A DNA stretch of 64,000 nt, taken from assembly GCA_964016885.1 (NCBI GenBank), contig OZ024757.1:31186001-31250000 (forward strand). The letters run 5' to 3'. Below, in pieces: positions 1-47,926 of the stretch. Every line of letters begins with the position of its first letter. Position 1 is the stretch's first letter. The notes under the pieces are model-generated. The model searched no databases. It had not been told where the DNA came from and saw only the letters and a program-made list of their open reading frames with translations. The position numbers and the translations under genes were made by a program. The DNA comes from Eledone cirrhosa. Its lineage: Eukaryota.

Positions 1-132
1 GTATCTCTATATATATGTGTGTGTATAAATATGTGTGTATATATATGTGTGTGTATATAAATATATATATATATAATATGTATGTTTCTGAAATATATAT
101 ATATATATATATACACACACAATATATATATA

Positions 133-8058: not shown

Positions 8059-8260
8059 GATGTGTTGGTGTAAATGGTAGCACAGTGGTCTGGATAACCA
8101 AAGATGTGGGTTCGACTCCCATGTACGTCAATACTCATCTTTTCCCATTTATCTGAGGGTTCTAAACCCCATTATCAGGCTAAAATTTCTTTAGTCGAAA
8201 AATACGGTGAAAGCTATTCTATTTTCTAATTTCAAACCTGCTCACTGTTTCAAAACATAC
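8059..8260 (+). mobile_element. tRNA-headed SINE-like element (family 3)
   Basis: 8059-8130 folds as a cloverleaf (A box TGGTGTAAATGG, T loop TTCGACT, GGA at the anticodon position, short variable loop). The body recurs on the minus strand at 60485-60595. Confidence 0.7.
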
Positions 8261-15436: not shown

Positions 15437-17407
15437 GTGGAGGTTGCAGTGGCTATTTCGAAGCTGAACAGTGGAAGATCTCCAGGTATGGATGGCATAC
15501 ATGCTGAGCTCCTACAATATGGTGGTGAGAGACTCCTGCAACATCTTCACTCTCTGTTTGGAAGGATATGGGCTAATGAATCCGTGCCTGAGGACTGGAG
15601 AGATGCAGTAATGGTGGTCTTGTACAAGGGAAAGGGTAACAGGAATGATTGTGGGAACTACAGAGGTATATCATTGCTTTCTGTCGTGGGGAAAGTTTTA
15701 TGTAGGGTGCTTCTGGACCGTCTGCTGACACACATTGCAGATTGTGTCCTTCCTGAAAGTCAATCTGGTTTTCGTGTTGGACGCGGCACTACTGATATGA
15801 TCTTCTCAGCTAGACAGCTCCAGGAGAAGTGCATTGAACAGGGCTTGGATCTGTATCAGGTTTTTGTCGATCTGACAAAGGCTTTCGATACTGTCAACAG
15901 AGATGCATTATGGAAGGTTCTCCAGAAACTTGGTTGCCCTGATAAGTTCCTTGCTTTAGTTAGGTCTTTCCATGACGACATGAAGGCTTGGGTTAATGTC
16001 GGAGGTAACATGTCGGAGCCTATCTCAGTAAAAAATGGAGTGAAACAGGGGGATATTCCAGCACCGACCCTGTTTGCCATATACTTTGCAATGGTTTTCT
16101 GTATTGCATTCAGGAATTGCGAGCATGGTGTTTACATCCGATATCGAACCTCAGGCAGCATATTTAACATCAGGCGCTTTGCTGCGAAGACAAAAGTATT
16201 TACATCAGTCATAAGAGACCTCTTGTATGCAGATGATTGCGATCTTGTAGCGCACACAGAGAGTGATATGCAGCACATTTTGAATGTATTTTCTGACGCT
16301 TGCACTGCCCTGGGTTTGACTGTCAGTCTCAAGAAAACCGTCGTCATGTACCAACCTGCACCTGGTAGGCAGTACACTGAACCAAACATCTATGTGTATG
16401 GCAAACGACTTGGAGTGGTTGATCAGTTTGTCTACCTGGGAAGCACTGTCAATCGATACGGCAACCTTGACGGTGAAATCTCACTTAGGATTAGGAAAGC
16501 AAGTGATGCTTTCGGAAAGCTAGAAAGGCGACTCTGGGGTCGGCGAGACATATGCAGGAGGATAAAGGTAAAGGTGTACAGGGCATGTGTACTCTCTTGT
16601 CTTCTTTATGCCTGCGAGACCTGGGTCACATATCGACGCCACCTTAAGCAATTGGAGCGTTTCCATCAGATGTGTCTCAGACGGATACATGGCGTTCACT
16701 GGAGGGACCACATCAGTGATGTCGAGATTTTGGAAAGCTCTATGTGTGACAGTATAGAAGCTCTTGTGCTTAAGCAGCGACTCCGTTGGAGTGGTCACCT
16801 TGCCAGGATGAAGGATTCTAGAATACCAAAACAACTCTTCTATGGAGAGTTGGTTAAAGGAAAACGACCGCCACATAAACCAAAAAAGAGGTATAAGGAT
16901 TCCTTGAAAGCCTCTCTGAGAGACGCTAACATCTCTGCTGATACATGGGAAAATATTGCTGCTGATCGTAATAAATGGAGAAAGACTGTATATGAGGGAA
17001 AAGTTGCCTTTGAGGCATCTCGAATCGCACACGAGAAAGTAAAGCGGGACGTGAGGAAGGGTATTGCTGTTGCACTTCCAGACGGCGAGGGTCCTCCTAT
17101 ATTTCTGACATGCAGCGTCTGTGCGAGACTCTGCCTAAGCAAAGCTGGACTCGAAAGTCATCTTCGCAGTCATAAAGTAAGACCAGTGGTTGACTACCAG
17201 GCTGCTGTTGGAGATGCTACTCATCATGCTTGCCAAACATGTGGTAGAGAATGTAAATCAGCAGGAGGACTCAAGCGACATGCAAAAGTACACGAACTCC
17301 AACCACAGCCGACTATTCCCAGTAAATGTTTTGGTTGCCGACTCCGTGCAAGACATTTTAGATCATTGGCTGGGCTAAAAAGCCACATTCGATCGCAGCA
17401 CTGTTAG
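15437..17407 (+). CDS. RTE-clade LINE reverse transcriptase with three C-terminal C2H2 fingers (5'-truncated, no APE domain)
   Basis: Open frame of ~655 codons with SPGMDG, NYRGISLL, QSGFR, FVDLTKAFD, GVKQG, YADD, YLGS and RLRWSGH. Fingers CSVC..HLRSH, CQTC..HAKVH and mutated CRLR..HIRSQH. The ORF-track start at 15338 lies in microsatellite. Confidence 0.95.
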   Translation: MEVAVAISKLNSGRSPGMDGIHAELLQYGGERLLQHLHSLFGRIWANESVPEDWRDAVMVVLYKGKGNRNDCGNYRGISLLSVVGKVLCRVLLDRLLTHIADCVLPESQSGFRVGRGTTDMIFSARQLQEKCIEQGLDLYQVFVDLTKAFDTVNRDALWKVLQKLGCPDKFLALVRSFHDDMKAWVNVGGNMSEPISVKNGVKQGDIPAPTLFAIYFAMVFCIAFRNCEHGVYIRYRTSGSIFNIRRFAAKTKVFTSVIRDLLYADDCDLVAHTESDMQHILNVFSDACTALGLTVSLKKTVVMYQPAPGRQYTEPNIYVYGKRLGVVDQFVYLGSTVNRYGNLDGEISLRIRKASDAFGKLERRLWGRRDICRRIKVKVYRACVLSCLLYACETWVTYRRHLKQLERFHQMCLRRIHGVHWRDHISDVEILESSMCDSIEALVLKQRLRWSGHLARMKDSRIPKQLFYGELVKGKRPPHKPKKRYKDSLKASLRDANISADTWENIAADRNKWRKTVYEGKVAFEASRIAHEKVKRDVRKGIAVALPDGEGPPIFLTCSVCARLCLSKAGLESHLRSHKVRPVVDYQAAVGDATHHACQTCGRECKSAGGLKRHAKVHELQPQPTIPSKCFGCRLRARHFRSLAGLKSHIRSQHC

Positions 17408-20361: not shown

Positions 20362-20501
20362 GAGTTAAACAAGATTCAATGAGTACATCAAAGAATGAGT
20401 TTTACAGTAGATTGGAAGCACTCTACAGAAAAAAATATTTTCCACAGTTATTAATATTAAAATATAAATATTAATAAAATACCTGTTCTTTTGATCAATT
20501 A

Positions 20502-20555
20502 AATTTTATTATACATATTTCAGAGGTACAACAGTACGTCCTCATCAGACAAAAT
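20502..20555 (-). ncRNA. Type I hammerhead ribozyme motif
   Basis: attttgt-CTGATGA-ggacgtactgttgtacctct-GAAA-tatgta-TA-ataaaat. Same family as 47036-47111. GAGTGCT at 20423-20417. Confidence 0.75.
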
Positions 20556-21216
20556 ATAATGATACTTGACATACACTGAGATGTTAAATGGTTAAGATTT
20601 AATCAAGGTAGGGATTAACCTATGAGAAAACTCAACATTTATACCCTAATAATGAGAAAATACGAAAACGTAATAGATTCAATAGAGAGGGTATGAGTAA
20701 GAAAGAAGTTGCTTTAATGTAACAGTTATAGAGATTTTAAAATGTGGGATACTACAAATTAGGATTATAGAGGAATACATCTCTGGAGTTATAATTTTAT
20801 TACAGTTTATGAAAGCAACCGATAGATAATTAATTAAATAGAAGTAGAGATAAAAGGGGAGTAATTTTTGCAAAAAATTTTCTACATATGGACTTAGCGG
20901 TTAAATTTCAAAATATTTAATTTAGGTTATTTTAGGGTGAAGAATCAAAATTTTAGGTTTTAAAAGTTGATGGTTATTTATATTAATTTTATAAATTTTA
21001 TAAATTTTTAAAAGTGTTACATTTCTAAAATTCTGAATTTTATGAAAACAAAATTAAAGGATTTACTAAGCCCGCGAAAGAAAAATATACACTGTTGAAT
21101 ATTCCCTTAAATGTAATCTTTAACAAAATTACCTATAACAAGTGACAACATTTTCGGTATGTAAAATTTATGAAGTACTTACTATTACAAATATCGAAGA
21201 ATTTATTGTCAAGTAG

Positions 21217-22633: not shown

Positions 22634-23269
22634 GTAAGCATATATACATATATATATATATATATACATATATATACACACAGACACACATATATATATA
22701 TATATATTAGAATACGAATTAACTTATGTAAGACTACATACGATGCTTTTGTTTGTGTATCTTTTTTTACATAAATTTTGTAGCTACATTCATTTATAGT
22801 CTATGAATTATGATTCTATTACAACCAGTAACCCCAGAATATTTTATGTGTTATACAAAGACAAATAATAAACATACTTTCAACGATGTTATCAACAATC
22901 GACTCATCAAACACAGCGAATGTATTTCTATCTTGATTTTTTTTATATGAAATAATATAAAAAGTATTTTTTTAAAAATGTATTCTTTAAAAATATAAAA
23001 TAAGCAATTCATTTTTACTTTAAATAAATGTTTGTTACTTTTAATATTTTGTTATCATTAATGTAAAATAATGTTTCGACTAACACAAAAAAAAAATTAT
23101 GATTGAAAATTGAATTTTGTATGAGGATAAAAATAGTTTCATCCTCGCCATGAAAATTAATGCAAGTTTTAAATTATGTTTTATTATAAATTATTTTATA
23201 TTTGTCTCTGCTATTTTGCAATTTACTCCAACATTTAGAAATGGGGTTACATTCTTGTGAAACTCAAAT

Positions 23270-23490
23270 TCAGCTTCAAAACCTCATTTAAATCCTCAAG
23301 TTCAAAAACCTCCAGTCCAAACCTATTTCAAAACCTCCAGTTCAACCCTTTCACTCCAAAACCTCCAGTTCGAAACCTCCAGTCCAAACCTTCTGTTTCC
23401 AAACCTTCTATTTCCAAACCTTCCAATCCAAAACCTCCAGTTTGAAACCTCCACTCCAAACCTTAAATTTCAGAACCTCCAGCCCATACC
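23270..23490. repeat. ~14-15-bp minisatellite (AAACCTCCAGTTC-like)
   Basis: About 14 diverged units. Duplicated at ~32700-32920. Confidence 0.85.
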
Positions 23491-23527
23491 TTTCAATCCT
23501 TCACGTGTATGTATGTTTATATGCGTG

Positions 23528-23563
<36 letters not shown>

Positions 23564-23629
23564 CAGGTATGTGTGTATATGTATCTGTGTGTTTTATGCA
23601 AGTGTGTGAACGTAATGTATGTGTGTATG

Positions 23630-23672
<43 letters not shown>

Positions 23673-23903
23673 ACGTGAGTCTACGATTGTAAATTCAGTT
23701 ATAAAATGTCTCCTGTAATCCAGGAACTTCTCTCCTCTCCACAACATTTCCCACAATCTATTGAAATGACGTCCCAGTGTTTACGAAAATTCACAAAATT
23801 TTAGGAAATATATCATTTTGTCAAATTTTCTAATTTCATTTAATTACTCTCTAAGAAATAATTATTCCTAGCTTTTCTTTATTTTTCTTCCTATCCACCT
23901 TTA

Positions 23904-23982
<79 letters not shown>

Positions 23983-25042
23983 TTCCCCCTCTCTCTCATT
24001 CTATCTATCTGCCAATCTTTCTTTCTGTCTCTAATTAAACAACGAGACAAAACTTTTCGTTAAATAACCGTAATTATTCTCCACCAAACATTCTAGACTG
24101 TTGGCACACACACACACACGCACATGCACATACACGCGCGCACACACGCATGCACATACATATATATATATATATATATATCTTTCTAATTCTGTGGTTT
24201 TTGAAATTACTAAATCGAAAGACATTCTATTAAATAAAAGACAAGAATTAATTAGCATGTAACCATAGAATTAGAAAGACATTCAAGCATTATAAATACA
24301 ACTAAACAAATAAAGGAAAAAAATATAAAAGAAGATATATATATGTGTGTGTGTGTGTATATATATATTTTTTTTGCTATTAGAATTAATCCATAGATTC
24401 AATGCTATATTTTATCCCTATAACTGTTTTAAATAATTAACTATTAATGAGCACTATATATTACACTATATTCAACACTCTAACAAAACTTTAACCTATT
24501 AAGAAAACCAGATTATTAATGAGATTTCTTATTCGAAAATAAAATTCCCTACAGGTAAAACTTCATTCTGACCACTCTAACACAATACAGTACTTACACA
24601 AATTTTGTTATTTTATTACTTATATATTTTTAAATCTAATTTTTACTTTTTTTTGGTTCCATCTATATTCCTCTCCTTGTTCTATTTTTAGAACAAATTA
24701 TTCCTCTTGAACAAAGAAACAACAAATATTTAGGATTGTTCTATACTATTCTACTGGATATAACACACTGATATCTGTACCCCTTTTCCTCCAACTTTAA
24801 TCTTCCTTGACTCTCCACACTTTTCTGAAATTTCTATACAATATGTCTAAATTCATTTACTCTCGCAATTTTCTTTTCTTAAAGGTCATTCGATACCTCA
24901 TCCCCTGACTGCTAATTTATTCATCTGCTACTACCAGCTTAATGATCTATATTGCCCCTTCCTATTTTTACTATTAGTCAATCTCAACCTTGTTCTTAAA
25001 AGGTTACTTATTCATACATGTGTTTATATTCTTCAATTAACA

Positions 25043-25188
25043 AAACTCATTATTTCTGAAGACGGCGGGTAGAGAAGACGTATGTATATTTTCTTACTTT
25101 GATAATTTGTAATATATTTTACATAGATCACTAATAGAATGAACATACGGGGAACTACCCCCAGAAACGATCGTAAAATAATGAGTTT
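25043..25188 (+). ncRNA. Type I hammerhead ribozyme with 101-nt stem II domain
   Basis: Perfect 13-bp stem I (aaactcattattt / aaataatgagttt), CTGAAGA at 25056-62, GAAA at 25164-67, palindromic stem III CGATCG, and a GUA cleavage triplet. Confidence 0.88.
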
Positions 25189-25371
25189 AACTATGAATTA
25201 GCCGTATTTTGTTTAATTTCATTGTTTTCACTATTTGTATTATTTTGACTCTGCTTCCAATGAATTATATCGTTGAAATTTTGTATTTTAAACTTTGCTT
25301 CACGACATCTACATACGGATTACATTGAGTTCTTCATACGGCTTGGACCCTACCATTAATTGGTAGATTTG

Positions 25372-25417
<46 letters not shown>

Positions 25418-25709
25418 ATACATTCACACACATATTTATATATGTATATATGTATATATAATATATATATATATAATATAATATATATATATATATATAT
25501 TTATATGATATATATATATATTTATATAATATATATATATATATATTTATATAATATATATATATATATTTATATAATATATATATATATTTATATAATA
25601 TATATATATATATATACATAATATATATATAATATATATATATATACATAATATATATATATATATATATAATACATACATATATATATATATATAATAC
25701 ATATATATA

Positions 25710-25748
<39 letters not shown>

Positions 25749-25914
25749 CATATATATATATTTATATATATATATATATATATAATACATATATATATAT
25801 TTATATATATATATATATATATAATACATATATATATATTTATATATATATATATATATATAATACATATATATATATTTATATATATATATATATATAT
25901 AATACATATATATA

Positions 25915-25955
<41 letters not shown>

Positions 25956-26008
25956 CATATATATATATTTATATATATATATATATATATATATAATACA
26001 TATATATA

Positions 26009-26049
<41 letters not shown>

Positions 26050-26090
26050 CATATATATATATATATATATATATAATACATATATATATA

Positions 26091-26127
<37 letters not shown>

Positions 26128-26178
26128 CATATATATATATTTATATATATATATATATATATAATACATATATATATA

Positions 26179-26272
<94 letters not shown>

Positions 26273-26476
26273 CATATATATATATTTATGTATATATATA
26301 TATATATATAATACATATATATATATTTATGTATATATATATATATATATAATACATATATATATATTTATGTATATATATATATATATAATACATATAT
26401 ATATATTTATATATATATAATATATATATTTATATATATATCTATTTATTTATATATATATCTATATATATATATA

Positions 26477-26508
<32 letters not shown>

Positions 26509-26838
26509 TTATATATAATATATTTATATATATATCTATATATATATAATATATATATATAATATATTTATATATATATCTCTATATATATATAATATAT
26601 ATATACAATATATTTATATATTTATATATATATATATATAATATATATATATAATATATTTATATATATACAATATATTTATATATAATATATATATACA
26701 ATATATTTATATATATATATTTATATATATATCTCTATATATATATAATATATATATTTATATATATATCTATATATATATATAATATATTTATATATAT
26801 ATATATATATAATATATATATATATAATATATATATAT

Positions 26839-26899
<61 letters not shown>

Positions 26900-27031
26900 A
26901 GCAAAAGTTCTATTTAAATTGTTGGGATACAACAAGCAAATATTTTTATAACTGATATAAAGCACTCAACAAGTATTTGGAGTAAACATACGATATTAAC
27001 AAATGGAAACTATATTTATAAAACCATATTT

Positions 27032-27094
27032 ATTTCATTATACATATTTCAAGGACACCAAGTTAAATTATGGTGTGCATCCACCAGACAAAAT
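27032..27094 (-). ncRNA. Degenerate hammerhead (core CTGGTGG)
   Basis: attttgt-CTGGTGG-atgcacacca..tggtgtcctt-GAAA-tatgtaTAatgaaat. Homologous to 20555-20502. GAGTGCT at 26966-26960. Confidence 0.6.
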
Positions 27095-27209
27095 ATAATA
27101 TAGATCAGTTTTTAATATCCAATACTAATAATAATATAAGTAAACTACTCCACTATCCGGGAGCTTCCAACAGTTGAAAATAGCCTAACTTGACTGTCAC
27201 CACATATTA

Positions 27210-27248
27210 TGAACCTGAAGATTGCGAAAGCATGAAAGTACTTGTTCA
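27210..27248 (+). ncRNA. Minimal type I hammerhead ribozyme (39 nt)
   Basis: tgaac-CTGAAGA-t tgc gaaa gca t-GAAA-gtac-TT-gttca. Palindromic stem III AGTACT. Confidence 0.85.
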
Positions 27249-27350
27249 ATTAACACTTTGAATTTAATATTCTATCATACTATTTCATTATAATACCATT
27301 ATAAATTTTAAATAAAACGAGTAAATCAGACAAAGTTGGAATTCCTCTTA

Positions 27351-27426
<76 letters not shown>

Positions 27427-27457
27427 TACATATATATATATATATATATGATACATA

Positions 27458-27502
<45 letters not shown>

Positions 27503-27505
27503 CAT

Positions 27506-27550
<45 letters not shown>

Positions 27551-27572
27551 CATATATATATATAATACATAT

Positions 27573-27606
<34 letters not shown>

Positions 27607-27847
27607 ATATATATAATATATATATATAATATATATAATATATATATATATAATACATATATATATAATACATATATATATATATATAATACATATATAT
27701 ATATATATAATACATATATATATATATATAATACATATATATATATATATATAATACATATATATATATATATAATACATATATATATATATATAATACA
27801 TATAGATATATATATAATACATATAGATATATATATAATACATATAG

Positions 27848-27886
<39 letters not shown>

Positions 27887-28138
27887 TAATTTATTCGGTC
27901 CTCAATGTTGCCATTGACTGACCAACGGTCAAAAATAATACAGATATTGAGGACCGAATAAATTAGATTACAGATATAAAAGACACAGAAGCGAAAAGTG
28001 AAAACCAACCAAACAGTGAGTGTGTTCTGTTATTAATTCTGGCAATATTACACAAATATGACCCTCCCCAAGTATAACAATATCTGTTTCGACACACGAT
28101 TTCATATCAAAAACCTCGCAAAACTAATTCATCGCCGT
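27887..28138 (+). mobile_element. Penelope-like terminal fragment with a short inverted 5' arm, inserted in (TA)n
   Basis: 20-bp inverted arms (27887-27906 / 27946-27965). 3' end homologous to 4830-4912. Duplicated at ~38507-38760. Confidence 0.65.
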
Positions 28139-28152
28139 TATATATATATATA

Positions 28153-28258
28153 ATCCCGCCGAGGTTGACTTTGCCTTTCATCCTTACGGGGTCGATAAAA
28201 TAAAATACCAGTAATGCACTGGATAATTGCTGGCCTTGTGCCTAAAGTAGAAACAGTT
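28153..28258 (+). mobile_element. SINE family 1, 5'-truncated
   Basis: Core and tail. Confidence 0.9.
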
Positions 28259-28449
28259 ATATATATATATATATATATAATACATATATATATATATATA
28301 ATACATATATATATATATATAATACATATATATATATATAATACATATATATATATATAATATATATATATATATAATACATATATATATATATATATAC
28401 ATATATGTATGTATATGTATATATATATATACATATATGTATGTATATG

Positions 28450-28480
<31 letters not shown>

Positions 28481-28537
28481 GTATGTATATGTATATATAT
28501 ATATATATACATATATGTATATATATATATATATACA

Positions 28538-28569
<32 letters not shown>

Positions 28570-28939
28570 AGTTTACATGTATAAAATACTATACATTTGT
28601 TTAACTTCTATTCAGTGTAGTTTCCTGTTCAATCCAAAGACATTACTATATTCCATGTACAGACACACTCACGCACACACACACATAGACACACTCACTC
28701 TCTCACACACTCACAGGCGCACATACACACACACAGACACACACACACATATAAAAGAAGTCATGTTCTTAAAAGAATCTTTCAAATAGTAAAGCAAACT
28801 ACGTTGAGTATCACGATAAATGTATTATTCTTGTTATTGTTGTTACTGTTGTTGTTGTTTTATGTATTGTTAGTACATTTTTTTTCAAGAAACTGCCTTT
28901 CTTAGTTTCCTGGTTGTCATGGTTGTATTATCACCCACA

Positions 28940-28991
<52 letters not shown>

Positions 28992-29593
28992 TAAATATAT
29001 ACATACCCACACACAGACATATATATCGCCCCCCCCCTGCCCCCCTTCTCTCTATCTATCTCTGTATATATATATACACATATATGTATTTATGTACTGT
29101 ATATATATGTATTTATGTATATATATGCATTTATGTATATATATATATATATATGTATTTATGTATATATATATGTATTTATGTATATATATATGTATTT
29201 ATGTATATATATATATGTATTTATGTATATATACGTATTTATGTATATATATATGTTTTTATGTATATATATATATATATATATACATAAAAACATATAT
29301 ATATACATAAATACGTATATATACATAAATACATATATATATATACATAAATACATATATATATACATAAATACATATATATATATACATAAATACATAT
29401 ATATACATAAATACATATATATATATACATAAATACATATATATATATGTATTTATGTATATATACGTATTTATGTATATATACGTATTTATGTATATAT
29501 ATATGTTTTTATGTATATATTATATATATATGTTTTATGTATATATATAAATATGTATTTATGGATATATACGTATTTATGTATAAATATATG

Positions 29594-29628
<35 letters not shown>

Positions 29629-29650
29629 GTTATGTATGTATATATTCATG

Positions 29651-29708
<58 letters not shown>

Positions 29709-30281
29709 AATTAATGAACAAAACTTCAGCAACAATAAAAGGAAATGCAATATAAAGATATAAAGGACTTGCTGTATACCGATGTATATAAAATGGCGAG
29801 GATTAGGTAAATCTTGTTTCATTTCGCTTCGCAGAAAATACAAATGTCATATTTATTTTTCCTAAATTCTTCGGTGATAATATTTCCAAACAATAAATAT
29901 TCTAATTCAATTAATTAATGATGAATATTAAAGATTTACTAAAAATCATTACTTATTTCATGAATAAGATACAAACCTGACATACGAGTATGGTTCTTAT
30001 ATAAAATTATGTTGGAAGATTTTAACTTAAATAGAAGCAGTATATTTAATTAATTAATGAAAAATTTTGAAGAATTTACCAAAATTATTGCATATTTCCT
30101 TAGTAAAATTGTAAACATGTCAAATAGTCCTACTATAAAATTGTTAGAATGTTTTAATTTAAGTAGGAATCTTTTAAATGTTTTGTTTTCATAGAACCAG
30201 AGCCTGTTTTGGCTGGGTTAGTATAAATAGGATTAACGAGAATTTCGGTAGACTGACTAACAAAATTATGGCCGTAATAGT

Positions 30282-30495
30282 GAAGGTGCGTGGCTGAGTG
30301 GTTAGAGAATTGGATTCGCAATCGTGAGGTTCTGAGTTCGATTCCCGGACCGGACGATGCGTTATGTCCTTGAGCAAGACACTTTATTTCTCGTTGCTCC
30401 TTCTACCTAGAGTTGCGACCGATAGATAGTATTAGCAATTGGAAAGAAAATGGAAACATTGTTTCCTCGGTCCGATTTGACGAAAGTCGATCGAC
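30282..30495 (+). mobile_element. SINE family 2 (tRNA-derived, CORE-like)
   Basis: A box TGGCTGAGTGG, B box GTTCGATTCC, and CORE-like tgtccttgagcaagacacttt. Copies at 40724-40938 (+) and 43259-43470 (-), with a head fragment at 10116-10152. Confidence 0.88.
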
Positions 30496-32098: not shown

Positions 32099-33051
32099 TA
32101 TACACACAGACACACATATATATATATATATATTAGAATACGAATTAACTTATGTAAGACTACATACGATGCTTTTGTTTGTGTATCTTTTTTTACATAA
32201 ATTTTGTAGCTACATTCATTTATAGTCTATGAATTATGATTCTATTACAACCAGTAACCCCAGAATATTTTATGTGTTATACAAAGACAAATAATAAACA
32301 TACTTTCAACGATGTTATCAACAATCGACTCATCAAACACAGCGAATGTATTTCTATCTTGATTTTTTTTATATGAAATAATATAAAAAGTATTTTTTTA
32401 AAAATGTATTCTTTAAAAATATAAAATAAGCAATTCATTTTTACTTTAAATAAATGTTTGTTACTTTTAATATTTTGTTATCATTAATGTAAAATAATGT
32501 TTCGACTAACACAAAAAAAAAATTATGATTGAAAATTGAATTTTGTATGAGGATAAAAATAGTTTCATCCTCGCCATGAAAATTAATGCAAGTTTTAAAT
32601 TATGTTTTATTATAAATTATTTTATATTTGTCTCTGCTATTTTGCAATTTACTCCAACATTTAGAAATGGGGTTACATTCTTGTGAAACTCAAATTCAGC
32701 TTCAAAACCTCAAATTTAAATCCTCAAGTTCAAAAACCTCCAGTCCAAACCTATTTCAAAACCTCCAGTTCAACCCTTTCACTCCAAAACCTCCAGTTCG
32801 AAACCTCCAGTCCAAACCTTCTGTTTCCAAACCTTCTATTTCCAAACCTTCCAATCCCAAACCTCCAGTTTGAAACCTCCACTCCAAACCTTAAATTTCA
32901 GAACCTCCAGCCCATACCTTTCAATCCTTCACGTGTATGTATGTTTATATGCGTGTATATATATATATATGTGTGTGTGTGTGTGCAGGTATGTGTGTAT
33001 ATGTATCTGTGTGTTTTATGCAAGTGTGTGAACGTAATGTATGTGTGTATG

Positions 33052-33082
<31 letters not shown>

Positions 33083-33313
33083 ACGTGAGTCTACGATTGT
33101 AAATTCAGTTATAAAATGTCTCCTGTAATCCAGGAACTTCTCTCCTCTCCACAACATTTCCCACAATCTATTGAAATGACGTCCCAGTGTTTACGAAAAT
33201 TCACAAAATTTTAGGAAATATATCATTTTGTCAAATTTTCTAATTTCATTTAATTACTCTCTAAGAAATAATTATTCCTAGCTTTTCTTTATTTTTCTTC
33301 CTATCCACCTTTA

Positions 33314-33426
<113 letters not shown>

Positions 33427-34477
33427 TTCCCCTTCTCTCTTTCTATCTATCTGCCAATCTTTCTTTCTGTCTCTAATTAAACAACGAGACAAAACTTTTC
33501 GTTAAATAACCGTAATTATTCTCCACCAAACATTCTAGACTGTTGGCACACACACACACACGCACGCACACACACGCACATGCACATACACGCGCGCACA
33601 CACGCATGCACACACATATATATATATATATATCTTTCTAATTCTGTGGTTTTTGAAATTACTAAATCGAAAGACATTCTATTAAATAAAAGACAAGAAT
33701 TAATTAGCATGTAACCATAGAATTAGAAAGACATTCAAGCATTATAAATAAAGGAAAAAAATATAAAAGAAGATATATATATGTGTGTGTGTGTATATAT
33801 ATATTTTTTTTGCTATTAGAATTAATCCATAGATTCAATGCTATATTTTATCCCTATAACTGTTTTAAATAATTAACTATTAATGAGCACTATATATTAC
33901 ACTATATTCAACACTCTAACAAAATTTTAACCTATTAAGAAAACCAGATTATTAATGAGATTTCTTATTCGAAAATAAAATTCCCTACAGGTAAAACTTC
34001 ATTCTGACCACTCTAACACAATACAGTACTTACACAAATTTTGTTATTTTATTACTTATATATTTTTAAATCTAATTTTTACTTTTTTTTGGTTCCATCT
34101 ATATTCCTCTCCTTGTTCTATTTTTAGAACAAATTATTCCTCTTGAACAAAGAAACAACAAATATTTAGGATTGTTCTATACTATTCTACTGGATATAAC
34201 ACACTGATATATGTACCCTTTTCCTCCAACTTTAATCTTCCTTGACTCTCCACACTTTTCTGAAATTTCTATACAATATGTCTAAATTCATTTACTCTCG
34301 CAATTTTCTTTTCTTAAAGGTCATTCGATACCTCATCCCCTGACTGCTAATTTATTCATCTGCTACTACCAGCTTAATGATCTATATTGCCCCTTCCTAT
34401 TTTTACTATTAGTCAATCTCAACCTTGTTCTTAAAAGGTTACTTATTCATACATGTGTTTATATTCTTCAATTAACA

Positions 34478-34623
34478 AAACTCATTATTTCTGAAGGCGG
34501 CGGGTAGAGAAGACGTATGTATATTTTCTTACTTTGATAATTTGTAATATATTTTACATAGATCACTAATAGAATGAACATACGGGGAACTACCCCCAGA
34601 AACGATCGTAAAATAATGAGTTT
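34478..34623 (+). ncRNA. Duplicate hammerhead with core substitution CTGAAGA to CTGAAGG
   Basis: Matches 25043-25188 except for G at 34497. Confidence 0.8.
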
Positions 34624-34806
34624 AACTATGAATTAGCCGTATTTTGTTTAATTTCATTGTTTTCACTATTTGTATTATTTTGACTCTGCTTCCAATGAAT
34701 TATATCGTTGAAATTTTGTATTTTAAACTTTGCTTCACGACATCTACATACGGATTACATTGAGTTCTTCATACGGCTTGGACCCTACCATTAATTGGTA
34801 GATTTG

Positions 34807-34862
<56 letters not shown>

Positions 34863-35393
34863 ATACATTCACACACATATTTATATATGTATATATGTAT
34901 ATATAATATATATATATATAATATAATATATATATATATATATATTTATATGATATATATATATATTTATATAATATAATATATATATATATATATTTAT
35001 ATAATATATATATATATATATATTTATATAATATATATATATATTTATATAATATATATATATATATATACATAATATATATATAATATATATATATATA
35101 CATAATATATATATATATATATATAATACATATATATATAATATATATATATATATATACATAATATAAATATATATATACATAATATAAATATATATAT
35201 ATATACATAATATATATATATATATACATAATATATATATATAATATATATATACATAATATATATATAAATATAATACATAATATATATATATATATAT
35301 ATATACATAATATATAAATATATATAATACATATATATATATATATAAATACATAATATATATATACATAATATATATATATATATATATAAT

Positions 35394-35433
<40 letters not shown>

Positions 35434-35539
35434 CATATATATATATAATACATATATATATATATATAGTATATATATATATATATATAATACATATATA
35501 TATATATATAATACATACATATATATATATATATATATA

Positions 35540-35570
<31 letters not shown>

Positions 35571-35591
35571 ATACATATATATATATATATA

Positions 35592-35637
<46 letters not shown>

Positions 35638-35732
35638 CATATATATATATATATAGTATATATATATATATATATATATATAATACATATATATATATAT
35701 ATATATAATACATACATATATATATATATATA

Positions 35733-35763
<31 letters not shown>

Positions 35764-35896
35764 ATACATACATATATATATATATATAATACATATATAT
35801 ATATTTATATATATATATATATAATACATACATATATATATATATATAATACATATATATATATTTATATATATATATATATAATACATATATATA

Positions 35897-35945
<49 letters not shown>

Positions 35946-35996
35946 CATATATATATATTTATATATATATATATATATATATAATACATATATATA

Positions 35997-36035
<39 letters not shown>

Positions 36036-36045
36036 CATATATATA

Positions 36046-36080
<35 letters not shown>

Positions 36081-36090
36081 CATATATATA

Positions 36091-36125
<35 letters not shown>

Positions 36126-36307
36126 CATATATATATATTTATATATATATATATATATATATATAATACATATATATATATTTATATATATATATATATA
36201 TATATAATACATATATATATATTTATATATATATATATATATATATAATACATATATATATATATTTATATATATATATATATATATATATAATACATAT
36301 ATATATA

Positions 36308-36358
<51 letters not shown>

Positions 36359-36493
36359 CATATATATATATTTATATATATATAATATATATATCTATTT
36401 ATTTATATATGTATATATATATATTTATGTATATATATATATATATATATATAATACATATATATATATTTATATATATATAATATATATATC

Positions 36494-36534
<41 letters not shown>

Positions 36535-36538
36535 TATC

Positions 36539-36604
<66 letters not shown>

Positions 36605-36867
36605 ATATTATATATATATTATATATATATCTATATATATATATAATATATATATAAAATATATTTATATATATATAATATATATATATAATATATTTAT
36701 ATATATATCTCTATATATATATAATATATATATACAATATATTTATATATATATATATATAATATATATATACAATATATTTATATATATATATATATAA
36801 TATATATATATAATATATTTATATATATATTTATATATATATATATAATATATATATACAATATATT

Positions 36868-36900
<33 letters not shown>

Positions 36901-37474
36901 ATATATATATAATATATATATACAATATATTTATATATATATATATATAATATATATATACAATATATTTATATATATATATTTATATATATATCTCTAT
37001 ATATATATAATATATATATACAATATATATATAATATATATATACAATATATTTATATATATAATATATATATACAATATATTTATATATATAATATATA
37101 TATATAATATATTTATATATATATCTATATATATATATATATATATAATATATTTATATATATATATCTATATATATATAATATATATATACAATATATT
37201 TATATATATATATATATTATATATATATAATATATATATATAATATATTTATATATATATCTATATATATATATATATAATATATATATACAATATATTT
37301 ATATATATATATATTATATATATATAATATATATATATAATATATTTATATATATATATATATATATATAATATATTTATATATATATCTATATATATAT
37401 ATAATATATATATATAATATAGTTATATATATATATATATATAATATATATATATATAATATATATATATAATA

Positions 37475-37517
<43 letters not shown>

Positions 37518-37827
37518 AGCAAAAGTTCTATTTAAATTGTTGGGATACAACAAGCAAATATTTTTATAACTGATATAAAGCACTCAACAAGTATTTGGAG
37601 TAAACATACGATATTAACAAATGGAAACTATATTTATAAAACCATATTTATTTCATTATACATATTTCAAGGACACCAAGTTAAATTATGGTGTGCATCC
37701 ACCAGACAAAATATAATATAGATCAGTTTTTAATATCCAATACTAATAATAATATAAGTAAACAACTCCACTATCCGGGAGCTTCCAACAGTTGAAAATA
37801 GCCTAACTTGACTGTCACCACATATTA

Positions 37828-37866
37828 TGAACCTGAAGATTGCGAAAGCATGAAAGTACTTGTTCA
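37828..37866 (+). ncRNA. Duplicate of the minimal hammerhead at 27210-27248
   Basis: Identical sequence. Confidence 0.85.
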
Positions 37867-37968
37867 ATTAACACTTTGAATTTAATATTCTATCATACTA
37901 TTTCATTATAATACCATTATAAATTTTAAATAAAACGAGTAAATCAGACAAAGTTGGAATTCCTCTTA

Positions 37969-38089
<121 letters not shown>

Positions 38090-38114
38090 ACATATATATA
38101 TATATATATATATG

Positions 38115-38154
<40 letters not shown>

Positions 38155-38159
38155 CATAT

Positions 38160-38204
<45 letters not shown>

Positions 38205-38209
38205 CATAT

Positions 38210-38243
<34 letters not shown>

Positions 38244-38429
38244 ATACATATATATATAATACATATATATATATATAATATATATATATATAATATATAT
38301 ATATATATAATACATATATATATATATAATACATATATATATATATAATACATATATATATATATAATACATATATATATATATAATACATATATATATA
38401 TATAATACATATAGATATATAATACATAT

Positions 38430-38481
<52 letters not shown>

Positions 38482-38878
38482 CATATATATATATATATAA
38501 TATATATAATTTATTCGGTCCTCAATGTTGCCATTGACTGACCAACGGTCAAAAATAATACAGATATTGAGGACCGAATAAATTAGATTACAGATATAAA
38601 AGACACAGAAGCGAAAAGTGAAAACCAACCAAACAGTGAGTGTGTTCTGTTATTAATTCTGGCAATATTACACAAATATGACCCTCCCCAAGTATAACAA
38701 TATCTGTTTCGACACACGATTTCATATCAAAAACCTCGCAAAACTAATTCATCGCCGTTATATATATATATATAATCCCGCCGAGGTTGACTTTGCCTTT
38801 CATCCTTACGGGGTCGATAAAATAAAATACCAGTAATGCACTGGATAATTGCTGGCCTTGTGCCTAAAGTAGAAACAG

Positions 38879-38940
<62 letters not shown>

Positions 38941-38941
38941 T

Positions 38942-38975
<34 letters not shown>

Positions 38976-39543
38976 ATATATATATATATACATATATAAT
39001 ACATATATATATATATATATAATACATATATATATATATATATAATACATATATATATATATATATATAATATATATATATATAATACATATATATATAT
39101 ACATATATGTATATATATATGTATATATATATATATATATATATACATATATGTATATATATATATATATATAAGTTTACATGTATAAAATACTATACAT
39201 TTGTTTAACTTCTATTCAGTGTAGTTTCCTGTTCAATCCAAAGACATTACTATATTCCATGTACAGACACACTCACGCACACACACACATAGACTCACTC
39301 ACTCTCTCACACACTCACAGGCGCACATACACACACACAGACACACACACACATATAAAAGAAGTCATGTTCTTAAAAGAATCTTTCAAATAGTAAAGCA
39401 AACTACGTTGAGTATCACGATAAATGTATTATTCTTGTTATTGTTGTTACTGTTATTGTTGTTTTATGTATTGTGAGTACATTTTTTTTCAAGAAACTGC
39501 CTTTCTTAGTTTCCTGGTTGTCATGGTTGTATTATCACCCACA

Positions 39544-39591
<48 letters not shown>

Positions 39592-40723
39592 TAAATATAT
39601 ACATACCCACACACAGACATATATATCGCCCCGCCCTCCCCCCTTCTCTCTATCTATCTCTGTATATATATATATATATATACACATATATGTATTTATG
39701 TACTGTATATATATGTATTTATGTATATATATGCATTTATGTATATATATATATATATATGTATTTATGTATATATATATGTATTTATGTATATATGTAT
39801 TTATGTATATATATATGTATTTATGTATATATATGTATTTATGTATTTATGTATATATATGTATTTATGTATATATATATATATATATGTATTTAGGTAT
39901 ATATATATATATATGTATTTATATATATATATATGTATTTATGTATATGTATTTATGTATATATATATGTATTTATGTATATATATATATGTATTTATGT
40001 ATATATACGTATTTATTTATATATATATATGTTTTTATGTATATATATATATATGTGTATTTATGTATATATATATGTATTTATATATATATATATATAT
40101 TTTTATGTATGTATATATTCATGTATATATATGTGTGTGTGTGTGTATGAATTAATGAACAAAACTTCAGCAACAATAAAAGGAAATGCAATATAAAGAT
40201 ATAAAGGACTTGCTGTATACCGATGTATATAAAATGGCGGGGATTAGGTAAATCTTGTTTCATTTCGCTTCGCAGAAAATACAAATGTCATATTTATTTT
40301 TTCCTAAATTCTTCGGTGATAATATTTCCAAACAATAAATATTCTAATTCAATTAATTAATGAAGAATATTAAAGATTTACTAAAAATCATTACTTATTT
40401 CATGAATAAGATACAAACCTGACATACGAGTATGGTTCTTATATAAAATTATGTTGGAAGATTTTAACTTAAATAGAAGCAGTATATTTTAATTAATTAA
40501 TGAAAAATTTTGAAGAATTTACCAAAATTATTGCATATTTCCTTAGTAAAATTGTAACATGTCAAATAGTCCTACTATAAAATTGTTAGAATGTTTTAAT
40601 TTAAGTAGGAATCTTTTAAATGTTTTGTTTTCATAGAACCAGAGCCTGTTTTGGCTGGGTTAGTATAAATAGGATTAACGAGAATTTCGGTAGACTGACT
40701 AACAAAATTATGGCCGTAATAGT

Positions 40724-40938
40724 GAAGGTGCGTGGCTGAGTGGTTAGAGAATTGGATTCGCAATCGTGAGGTTCTGAGTTCGATTCCCGGACCGGACGAT
40801 GCGTTATGTCCTTGAGCAAGACACTTTATTTCTCGTTGCTCCTTCTACCTAGAGTTGCGACCGATAGATAGTATTAGCAATTGGAAAGAAAAATGGAAAC
40901 ATTGTTTCCTCGGTCCGATTTGACGAAAGTCGATCGAC
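40724..40938 (+). mobile_element. SINE family 2
   Basis: As for 30282-30495. Confidence 0.88.
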
Positions 40939-46725: not shown

Positions 46726-46872
46726 CATGGATGTATATATATACATACTACTGTACGTCTGTATATATATATGTATGTACGTATACATACATACATACTT
46801 ACATTTATATATATATATATATATATTTATATAGTGCAAATTTATACGGGAACAAAACAGAGAGGCAGACAC

Positions 46873-47121
46873 GTACTCAAAATATATGTTTTATTATATA
46901 TATTTCAGAGGGACTGTGGTGTTTTTTTCAGTACGTCCTCATCAGATAAAATATATAAATTGATGTATGTCATACCTCAACTGTGTTGATGGTTCAATTT
47001 CAGTCTTGGCAGTTGAGGTACGACATACATCAATTTATATATTTTATCTGATGAGGACGTACTGAAAAAAAACACCACAGTACCTCTGAAATATATATAA
47101 TAAAATATATATTTTGAGTAC
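46873..47121. mobile_element. Hairpin element with one hammerhead per arm
   Basis: About 111-bp arms (46873-46983 / 47010-47121). Plus-strand HHR 47036-47111 has a 12-bp stem I, CTGATGA at 47048-54 and GAAA at 47088-91. Mirror HHR at 46957-46883. Confidence 0.85.
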
Positions 47122-47357
47122 TTGAAAGTCTCCATTTATTAAAATATTTACGTGAATGTCTCCATTTATTAATATTTTGAATTAATATATATATATATAA
47201 GTAATATAATATAATATATACATAAATATACAGATTATATATAAATATATATATCTTATATATATATATATATATATATATAGATATATATATAATCTAA
47301 TATATACATAAATATACAGATTATATATAAATATATATATGTTATATATATATATAT

Positions 47358-47885
47358 ATAAAGTTAAATAAAAGTCAAATGATTAAAATTTAGCTTCGTT
47401 TATTACTGCTATATATATTTCAGTGACAGCCATCTTTGGCTGTGACCTCTTCAGGCAGTTTGAATTAGTATGGTATAGACAAGTACATATGTTGTTTAGG
47501 TGTATGATATTGTCAATACTCTGATATGCCCAGTTCCTTGTTGGGTTGTTAATTCACTGGGGAACTGGAGTCATATGAATTAACAAGTGAATTAACAACC
47601 CAACAAGGAACTGGGCATATCAGAGTATTGACAATATCATACACCTAAACAACATATGTACTTGTCTATACCATACTAATTCAAACTGCCTGAAGAGGTC
47701 ACAGCCAAAGTTGGCTGTCACTGAAATATATATAGCAGTAATAAACGAAGTTAAATTTTAATCATTTGACTTTTATTTAACTTTATTTTACACTACTCCG
47801 GAGTAACCAAACCAACCTGCGCACTTCGTCGAGTGCTCCAGCCTGCATACTGAGGTGTTGGTATACAACCAACATAAACTCAAAA

Positions 47886-47888
<3 letters not shown>
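47358..47888 (+). mobile_element. Long asymmetric hairpin element with one hammerhead per arm
   Basis: 201-bp arms (47358-47558 / 47586-47786, two mismatches seen) and a ~100-nt tail. HHR 47685-47739 reads actgc-CTGAAGA-stem II-GAAA-tatata-TA-gcagt, then AATAAA. Mirror at 47459-47405. GAGTGCT at 47831-37. (TA)n on both sides. Confidence 0.9.

Positions 47889-47926
<38 letters not shown>

What the first reader, a model, noticed from the sequence alone, without database searches (positions are those of the whole stretch)
47358..47888. 201-bp-arm hairpin carrying a hammerhead and poly(A) signal on each strand
Seen: near-perfect inverted arms with a 27-nt spacer, each with an intact HHR immediately followed by AATAAA pointing outward. 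Only the right arm continues ~100 nt to the true 3' end. (TA)n lies on both sides. Known: Penelope insertions can carry inverted terminal repeats with an unpaired tail. Inference: this is a young insertion. Transcription from either direction meets a ribozyme, and read-through past both arms would refold into long dsRNA that sequesters it (a possible ADAR or Dicer substrate).
Basis: partly seen in the sequence, partly recalled or inferred. Interest (0 to 1): 0.75.

Follow-up and report, generated by a model that had tools for sequence, protein, structure and literature searches.

The report
Back-to-back Penelope copies, two start sites
This hairpin is one of hundreds of short back-to-back insertions of a Penelope-type jumping gene into TA repeats, and every pair that could be classified joins one short-ended arm to one long-ended arm, which likely records the element's enzyme copying the front of its RNA from both sides of a DNA cut; the predicted self-cutting RNA in each arm would be masked in any read-through transcript.

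Summary
The hairpin is real: 201-bp arms with 2 mismatches, a minimal type I hammerhead motif and AATAAA on each strand, in (TA)n. It is a head-to-head pair of 5'-truncated end copies of a Hydra-clade Penelope-like element; copies with the full RT-endonuclease reading frame exist in the genome. This layout is published. Three first-reader details fail: the 27-nt 'spacer' is left-arm continuation plus templated filler, the 100-nt extension is 5' leader rather than a true 3' end, and inserted ends lack poly(A). The family shows strict rules. Every classifiable pair joins a short end to a long end about 100 nt further on (32 of 32 junction-selected loci). Each end lies 5-6 nt before a related RNA motif. 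About 64% of arms stop at one 5' position that longer-than-unit copies read through. 22 of 99 long ends carry extra (CT)n. Best model: both target strands are primed at two motif-marked RNA sites, and copying runs off the transcript start. Ribozyme activity, expression and ADAR/Dicer action are untested. The scan reported the same layout, twin motifs and run-off before on other DNA, in this genome and others.

The parts
47358..47581 (-). Left arm: element copy starting at the short site (element position q201, q1 = 47586) and running to q-16..q-22; inner end ambiguous between 47575 and 47581
47576..47585 (+). Junction: 6-nt microhomology (47576-47581) plus 4-nt filler (47582-47585), together a copy of right-arm bases q3-q12; L096 uses the same microhomology without filler
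47571..47578 (.). 8-bp palindrome at the family's 5' stop (q-19..q-12); 377 genomic loci fold exactly here; inferred transcript start
47586..47888 (+). Right arm: element copy q1-q303, starting at the long site
47685..47739 (+). Minimal type I hammerhead motif: stem I 47685-47689 with 47735-47739, CUGAAGA 47690-47696, stem II 47697-47722, GAAA 47723-47726, palindromic stem III; predicted cut 47734/47735
47405..47459 (-). Mirror hammerhead motif in the left arm; predicted cut 47410/47409
47740..47745 (+). AATAAA directly after stem I; conserved; role (poly(A) signal or loop-1 contact) unresolved
47399..47404 (-). Mirror AATAAA in the left arm
47787..47888 (+). Unpaired tail: 5' leader sequence between the short and long start sites, 54 nt upstream of the ATG in full-length copies
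47795..47839 (+). First of two related motifs (ACUCC ... GUCGAGUGCUCC), starting 5 nt past the short site; its twin lies 6 nt past the long site and is absent from this insertion
47185..47357 (.). Left (TA)n-rich target flank; no target-site duplication resolvable
47889..47925 (.). Right (TA)n target flank

Best explanation
The hairpin is a single head-to-head insertion of two 5'-truncated end copies of a Hydra-clade Penelope-like retroelement in a (TA)n tract, likely made when the element's RT-endonuclease cut both target strands and primed one cDNA from each. Shown: the identity of the parent element, the two fixed outer ends about 100 nt apart, their strict short-plus-long pairing, a related motif 5-6 nt past each end, and a sharp 5' stop. 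Inferred steps: (1) a protein dimer binds the two motifs in the RNA's 5' leader and starts one cDNA at each site (about 0.75); (2) both sites are usually on one RNA, or on RNAs from one donor (about 0.6); (3) the cDNAs run off the RNA's 5' end at q-15..-19, the probable transcription start, and are joined by microhomology, often at the 8-bp palindrome there (about 0.6); (4) longer and full-length copies come from a template with no such end, a ribozyme-made circle or a tandem read-through (about 0.5). This copy lacks the upstream promoter region, the second motif and the reading frame, so it is probably a dead end. Its ribozyme motif would be masked in read-through RNA.
For: Parent: L069 has inverted arm, direct pLTR, RT frame with RWK, DKT and YRDD, CxCX5C linker, C-terminal endonuclease-like region with CxxC and CxH and no CCHH cysteine pair; unit 4125 bp. 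These match the Hydra definition (PMC8557442 section 11). Pairing: 32 of 32 classifiable loci among 40 chosen only by the central junction are short+long, none short+short or long+long; 64 of 64 insertions in query-selected samples; 10 of 10 classifiable pairs in a second family. In 4 of those 64 pairs (L032, L035, L055, L097) the long arm lies wholly in the tail, so neither arm can be a copy of the other. Motifs: ACUC..GAGU at the short site and GCUC..GAGC at the long site; 221 pattern matches in held sequence against 4 in one shuffle. 5' stop: exact 26-nt patterns fall from 4004 (q-14..11) to 1431 (q-27..-2), then 1276 (q-45..-20); 14 of 29 short arms and 7 of 22 long arms end in q-19..-15; 0 of 11 second-pass 5' pLTRs that reach it stop there (Fisher p=1.9e-5). 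A second family also has a fixed 5' stop. Partner arms differ by 1.7 bases on average against 7.4 for random arm pairs. In vitro precedent: a Penelope protein cuts and extends both strands, starts at two internal sites that bound the tail, is predicted to be a dimer, and uses uncleaved RNA (PMC11167929).
Against: No RNA data: the transcript start, the circle and ribozyme cleavage are all inferred. About 6 of 80 pairs differ at several linked shared alleles (32 of 124 differences on shared alleles against 12.8 expected), and L144 and L145 share arm-specific variants, so at least some pairs used two templates or were later converted. PMC11167929 saw no difference in start site between strands, whereas the rule here needs asymmetry. 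The element's own RT and endonuclease pieces give no Pfam or PDB hit; a homologue hits RVT_1 only below the cut-off. The second-pass sample is small (20 of 53 loci). Pattern counts use different 26-mers and are affected by divergence. This locus's own junction was not bridged in any public run laid.
Confidence: 0.7

Rival explanations
1. Same two start sites, but each protein subunit always carries its own RNA molecule, so the two arms come from two transcripts.
For: L010, L011, L026, L144, L145 and L151 differ between arms at 2-4 alleles shared with other copies; L144 and L145, with unrelated flanks, share long-arm and short-arm variants.
Against: 22 of 57 pairs are identical and 37 of 57 differ at one site or none, including older subfamilies (L123, L130). 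Two equal RNAs give no obvious reason for never seeing short+short or long+long.
Confidence: 0.15
2. One cDNA snaps back on itself at the palindrome and copies itself; the endonuclease then trims the product, leaving the tail on one side (self-priming as proposed in PMC3846280; endonuclease resolution as in PMC8557442).
For: 377 loci fold exactly at the 8-bp palindrome; most partner arms are near-identical.
Against: 4 of 64 pairs have non-overlapping arms, and either arm can reach far further upstream than its partner. Arms also stop at this position when joined to plain (TA)n or to a partner elsewhere. 48 of the 50 junctions listed are symmetric, but 2 carry different subfamily alleles 3 nt from the fold.
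Confidence: 0.08
3. The 5' stop is a retrovirus-like strong stop: the cDNA jumps from the transcript start to the repeated 3' pLTR of the same RNA, which ends at the AATAAA signal, and no circle is needed. This replaces step 4 only.
For: Geometry fits a U3-R-U5 layout: stop at q-17, AATAAA at q155-160, start sites downstream; about 36% of arms continue past the stop. D. virilis Penelope starts transcription inside the pLTR (PMC2377424, passages).
Against: A full-length cDNA would meet the same RNA end again, yet 0 of 11 stop there.
Confidence: 0.15
4. The locus is a functional regulatory hairpin: a two-way terminator or a source of dsRNA for ADAR or Dicer.
For: If transcribed, the arms fold into a 201-bp duplex of -366 kcal/mol. 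A. vaga Penelope copies give small RNAs (PMC3846280, passages).
Against: It is one young copy among at least hundreds of like hairpins. The layout is explained by insertion mechanics. No A-to-G scar between arms. No host exon recognised in the window.
Confidence: 0.05
5. The hairpin is a fold-back chimera of sequencing or assembly.
For: No contig in X1, X2 or X6 covers base 47582 (the tool says a hole proves nothing).
Against: The arms differ at 2 sites and end at the family's two fixed sites; the junction has templated filler. The family's fold junction appears as loose ends in 6 contigs of X1 and 4 of X2, and opposite-strand joints appear in raw short reads of X21.
Confidence: 0.01

Closest known systems
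Hydra clade of C-terminal EN+ Penelope-like elements (Craig et al. 2021, PMC8557442; section 11, passages and supplement rows read)
   Same: RWK, DKT, CxCX5C linker, no CCHH, CxxC and CxH, hammerhead motif, (TA)n targets.
   Different: Unit is 4.1 kb, against 'generally <3 kb'. Hydra-1_Obim is 2507 bp and its listed hammerhead differs in sequence, so this is another family. No tree was built.
Inverted pLTR insertion with one-sided 30-40 bp tail (PMC8557442 Fig. 2 legend; PMC3846280 passages)
   Same: Inverted 5'-truncated copy joined head to head; tail on one side; palindrome or microhomology at the junction.
   Different: Tail is 98-102 nt. A strict short+long rule, a motif past each end, a fixed 5' stop and (CT)n additions did not appear in the passages I read or in searches.
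PAc Poseidon in vitro system (Frangieh et al. 2024, PMC11167929; parts 1-2 of 4 read)
   Same: Two internal start sites bounding the tail, both strands cut and extended, AT-rich targets, uncleaved RNA as template, predicted dimer.
   Different: There the sites lie inside the reading frame and show no strand difference; here they lie in the 5' leader, about 100 nt apart, and are always used one each.
Minimal PLE hammerheads (Cervera and de la Pena 2014, PMC4209133; parts 1-2 of 4 read)
   Same: Type I, short palindromic helix III, long helix II. The paper already notes dual motifs 100-700 bp apart on opposite strands and proposes circular templates.
   Different: 10.1-11.1 is G-U in young copies (G-C in older ones); no extra base between 9 and 10.1 in my fold. 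Activity untested.
L1 twin priming (recalled, not read)
   Same: Both target strands prime on the RNA; the cDNAs join by microhomology, giving an inversion.
   Different: In L1 the second site is variable and the arms do not overlap; here both sites are fixed and the arms usually copy the same stretch twice.

Membership tests
Hydra-clade PLE (parent element) | RWK motif and DKG changed to DKT in the RT | tested here: met
   L069 frame; RW[KR] in 99 and DKT in 97 of 103 homologues of 650 aa or more
Hydra-clade PLE (parent element) | CxCX5C linker; CCHH motif absent; CxxC and CxH near the C-terminus | tested here: met
   CxCX5C in 98 of 103 homologues, CCHH-type cysteine pair in 1 of 103
Hydra-clade PLE (parent element) | RT followed by a C-terminal GIY-YIG endonuclease | tested here: inconclusive
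   Motifs read by eye; no Pfam or PDB hit for the element's own pieces; homologue P0096 hits RVT_1 at E=4.4e-5, below cut-off
Hydra-clade PLE (parent element) | Hammerhead in the pLTR and insertion into (TA)n | tested here: met
   151 of 159 outer ends go into TA
Hydra-clade PLE (parent element) | Length generally under 3 kb (typical, not diagnostic) | tested here: not met
   Hammerhead-to-hammerhead unit 4125 bp
Hydra-clade PLE (parent element) | Placement in the Hydra clade on an RT tree | not tested
   No reference Hydra proteins were fetched
PLE inverted insertion with tail | Inverted 5'-truncated copy joined head to head, extension on one side | tested here: met
   extension is 98-102 nt, not 30-40
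PLE inverted insertion with tail | Target-site duplication (optional) | tested here: inconclusive
   Both flanks are (TA)n
Minimal type I hammerhead | CUGANGA and GAAA core, NUH, stems I and II with covariation | tested here: met
   (three families, six sequences)
Minimal type I hammerhead | Short self-complementary helix III | tested here: met
   Three different palindromes across families in held loci
Minimal type I hammerhead | Match to an Rfam hammerhead model | tested here: not met
Minimal type I hammerhead | Self-cleavage after AUA | not testable with these tools
   No RNA holder listed
Non-LTR retrozyme | Non-coding tandem units, each with a hammerhead | tested here: not met
   Arms are pieces of a coding 4.1-kb element and are inverted, not tandem; definition from bioRxiv 2026.07.22.740005 part 1
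MITE or fold-back DNA transposon | Terminal inverted repeats flush at both ends and a fixed internal length (recalled) | tested here: not met
   Ends always unequal, inner ends variable
Poly(A) signal | Poly(A) added shortly downstream of AATAAA | not testable with these tools
   No RNA; inserted ends lie 45 and 143 nt downstream and 1 of 159 has an A-run

The most novel reading that the evidence does not exclude
A Hydra-clade RT-endonuclease dimer reads twin RNA motifs as two start signals, one per target strand. The linear mRNA gives run-off hairpins like this one, while a hammerhead-made RNA circle gives the longer-than-unit copies that rebuild the promoter. At the long site the RT first copies a 2-4 nt template repeatedly, writing (CT)n into the TA tract in a telomerase-like way. 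This would account for the inverted repeats, the tail, pLTR regeneration and the ribozyme's role in one cycle.
Probability: 0.3. Interest if true: 0.78.

Novelty: new member of a known kind. Interest (0 to 1): 0.45.

Why it matters
The locus itself is an ordinary dead-end product. [quoted passage not shown] The fixed ends, twin motifs, 5' stop and (CT)n additions give base-level predictions for an in vitro assay of the kind already built for PAc. Penelope RTs are the sister group of telomerase RTs (PMC8557442), so reiterative copying at initiation would be of wider interest if confirmed.

Tried and rejected
(1) I first read the two arm differences (q126, q166) as markers of two source lineages. 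Rejected: q166T is in 18 of 105 long arms and 0 of 106 short arms, but in 0 of 108 arms from samples not chosen with a query carrying it, so the query selected independent mutations. (2) Pile-up of 5' ends at the ribozyme cut (q150): only L086 and L195 end there; no hot spot. (3) (CT)n as a pre-existing compound target: rejected, since partner short ends, where found (23 of 27 loci), sit in TA-rich sequence without (GA)n. (4) No RNA holder listed, so nothing on expression. X16 laid 0 reads. (5) The locus junction and an empty site could not be tested: TA flanks are skipped and RAD reads break near the junction. (6) Rfam found no hammerhead; miRNA hits reflect only the long duplex. (7) Pfam and PDB searches of the element's frames were blank; the Atlas gave no result. 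(8) The sigma-70 scan does not apply to an animal genome. (9) PMC5785218 (hammerhead dimers) is not held. (10) Literature searches found no paper on twin priming, strong stop or reiterative starts in Penelope elements; subscription journals and bioRxiv supplements were not visible. (11) A findings search for the (CT)n stutter returned nothing.

Full report
Coordinates. q numbers count along the element; q1 is window 47586, and q0 is the base before it. 'Short end' is q198-208 and 'long end' is q294-303.

Observation. The motif is a type I hammerhead with a 5-bp stem I, a 10-bp stem II with one C-C mismatch, and a 2-bp stem III over a palindrome. Closing stem III within one molecule costs 3.4 kcal/mol. 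The window holds two other families with the same core and different stems (46945/47048 and 20548); across the three, 7 of 13 pairs change on both sides and 77 of 78 cells pair. I wrote that structure from these sequences and only three lineages are independent, so it is support, not proof. Among held loci the stem III 8-mer varies but stays self-complementary, as expected for dimer-type motifs (PMC4209133, parts 1-2 read; PMC6765202, passages). Rfam does not detect it.

What it belongs to. The right arm finds 425 candidates in the genome, 40 scored; one 26-nt pattern has 4004 exact matches. Walking upstream reaches a long 3' UTR and a reading frame. L069 shows the whole layout: (TA)n, inverted long arm, direct pLTR from q-89, leader through q303, ATG at q357, RT, linker, endonuclease-like region, 3' UTR, short end, (TA)n; the unit is 4125 bp. 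The frame carries RWK, DKT, YRDD, CxCX5C, CxxC and CxH and lacks the CCHH cysteines, which is the published Hydra definition. A homologue search gave 1376 hits among 7998 candidates; of 120 listed, 103 are 650 aa or longer and 97-102 of them share each of these motifs. Library support for the RT and endonuclease labels is weak. The L069 copy is frameshifted; I saw no intact frame among the 16 long loci fetched.

Corrections. The 'spacer' is left-arm continuation plus filler copied from q3-q12 of the right arm. The left arm's true inner end lies between q-16 and q-22. The tail is 5' leader: 53 loci continue past q303 towards the ATG, and read depth on that side is about 1,000-2,000 against 300,000-500,000 in the tail in run X1 (summed contig depth, not copy number). 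Of 30 copies picked with an upstream query, 18 end short and 12 long. Of 159 outer ends, 151 go into TA, 2 into the reading frame, 1 into an A-run and 5 into other sequence. AATAAA is conserved (3 differences in 378 bases, against 3.0-4.7% in control stretches) and recurs after stem I in several families. It could end transcription at the 3' pLTR or serve as a loop-1 contact; use at the 5' pLTR would remove both start sites.

Rule 1, unequal ends. I listed the exact fold junction (377 loci, control 0) and fetched 40 of the 50 places shown. In 32 both ends could be classified, and all 32 are short+long; 8 had one arm cut or deleted. Under independent 50:50 choice this is 2e-10. In query-selected loci, after dropping 25 duplicates or re-fetches, 64 of 64 insertions are short+long; a 65th row is L069's internal pLTR. 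The neighbouring family gives 10 of 10 classifiable pairs among 22 loci; the window's own copy could not be classified. In 4 of 64 pairs the long arm lies wholly within the tail, so the arms share no sequence and neither is a copy of the other. This favours two priming events over snap-back.

Rule 2, twin motifs. The pattern has 221 matches in held sequence, spread over several families but dominated by this one, against 4 in one base shuffle; 19 of 20 junction loci keep the second motif's core. The long-site motif folds as a short hairpin; the short-site fold is less clear-cut. Since the second motif lies beyond the long end, only leader-to-frame RNA carries both. This insertion has only the first.

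Rule 3, the 5' stop. Exact-pattern counts fall 64% between q-14 and q-27 and only 11% further to q-45. Among arms chosen on q99-205, 14 of 29 short arms and 7 of 22 partners end in q-19..-15. Among 20 of the 53 copies that span the leader-frame junction, 9 start downstream of it, 11 pass it, and none stops there (p=1.9e-5). The stop is therefore unlikely to be a barrier in the sequence itself and more likely an RNA end. The second family has its own fixed stop. A transcription start inside the pLTR has precedent in D. virilis (PMC2377424, passages). That the stop is a start site remains inference.

Rule 4, (CT)n at the long end. 22 of 99 long ends have two or more CT units between the element's terminal TCT and the (TA)n tract, and 5 more have an ATCT extension, of which some may be simple continuation. 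None of about 102 short ends does (the p of 6e-10 used 27). Partner flanks show no (GA)n. Reiterative copying at initiation is the simplest reading; later slippage may lengthen the runs. Repeat addition at the start of copying is, from memory, known in some LINEs.

One RNA or two. Of 57 pairs with 180 or more shared sites, 22 are identical and 37 differ at one site or none; the mean is 1.7 against 7.4 for random arms. Against a single template, 32 of 124 differences fall on shared alleles where 12.8 are expected, clustered in about six pairs, and L144 and L145 share arm-specific variants. Both routes may occur.

In a + strand read-through transcript the right-arm motif pairs with the left arm with probability 0.99997 as soon as it is complete; the - strand is symmetric. 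The hairpin would be a long dsRNA if transcribed, but no RNA run was listed and I recognised no host exon in the window. Both arms of family members cross the predicted cut unchanged, so their templates were uncut or re-ligated, in line with PMC11167929.

Artefact. Unequal fixed ends, two arm differences and a templated junction are not expected of a fold-back chimera. The family's fold junction and both TA-joined ends appear in public short-read data, including a second organism label. This locus's own junction was not bridged.

Verdict. A new Hydra-type family member showing a published insertion layout. The value lies in the family-level rules, several of which other notes of this scan also report; I tested them here on this family. 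Interest 0.45.

Noticed in passing
window 46870-47186: A second head-to-head hammerhead hairpin of an unrelated family, under 200 bp from the finding; 1468 candidates in the genome; same short+long rule (10 of 10), fixed 5' stop and tail motif. The left arm here ends early and the right arm has a 30-bp duplication.
   Followed up: partly
window 20400-20560 (-): Third hammerhead family, single long-type arm ending in (TA)n, with the tail motif at 20426.
   Followed up: partly
window 26970 and 37588 (-): Two identical copies of the tail motif from a further family, within what looks like a larger duplication of about 10 kb (roughly 22900-30400 and 32300-40800).
   Followed up: no
long ends of L005, L033, L091, L105, L131, L137, L141 and others: (CT)n runs of up to about 20 units between element end and (TA)n, only at long ends; a possible source of the genome's compound TA/GA microsatellites.
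   Followed up: partly
L144 and L145: Two insertions with unrelated flanks share three long-arm variants and one short-arm variant.
   Followed up: partly
window 15443-17404 (+): Uninterrupted 654-aa LINE-type RT frame (RVT_1 E=3.8e-31) with C-terminal C2H2-like fingers below cut-off.
   Followed up: partly
window 8059-8130 (+): tRNA-like match at 47 bits, possibly a pseudogene or SINE head.
   Followed up: no
L045 (oriented 176-680), L031, L061, L070: [quoted passage not shown]
   Followed up: no
runs X4, X5, X7-X11: The family's words are held by runs under seven other organism labels at shares 0.26-0.51; only X4 was laid, and it shows both TA-joined ends.
   Followed up: partly
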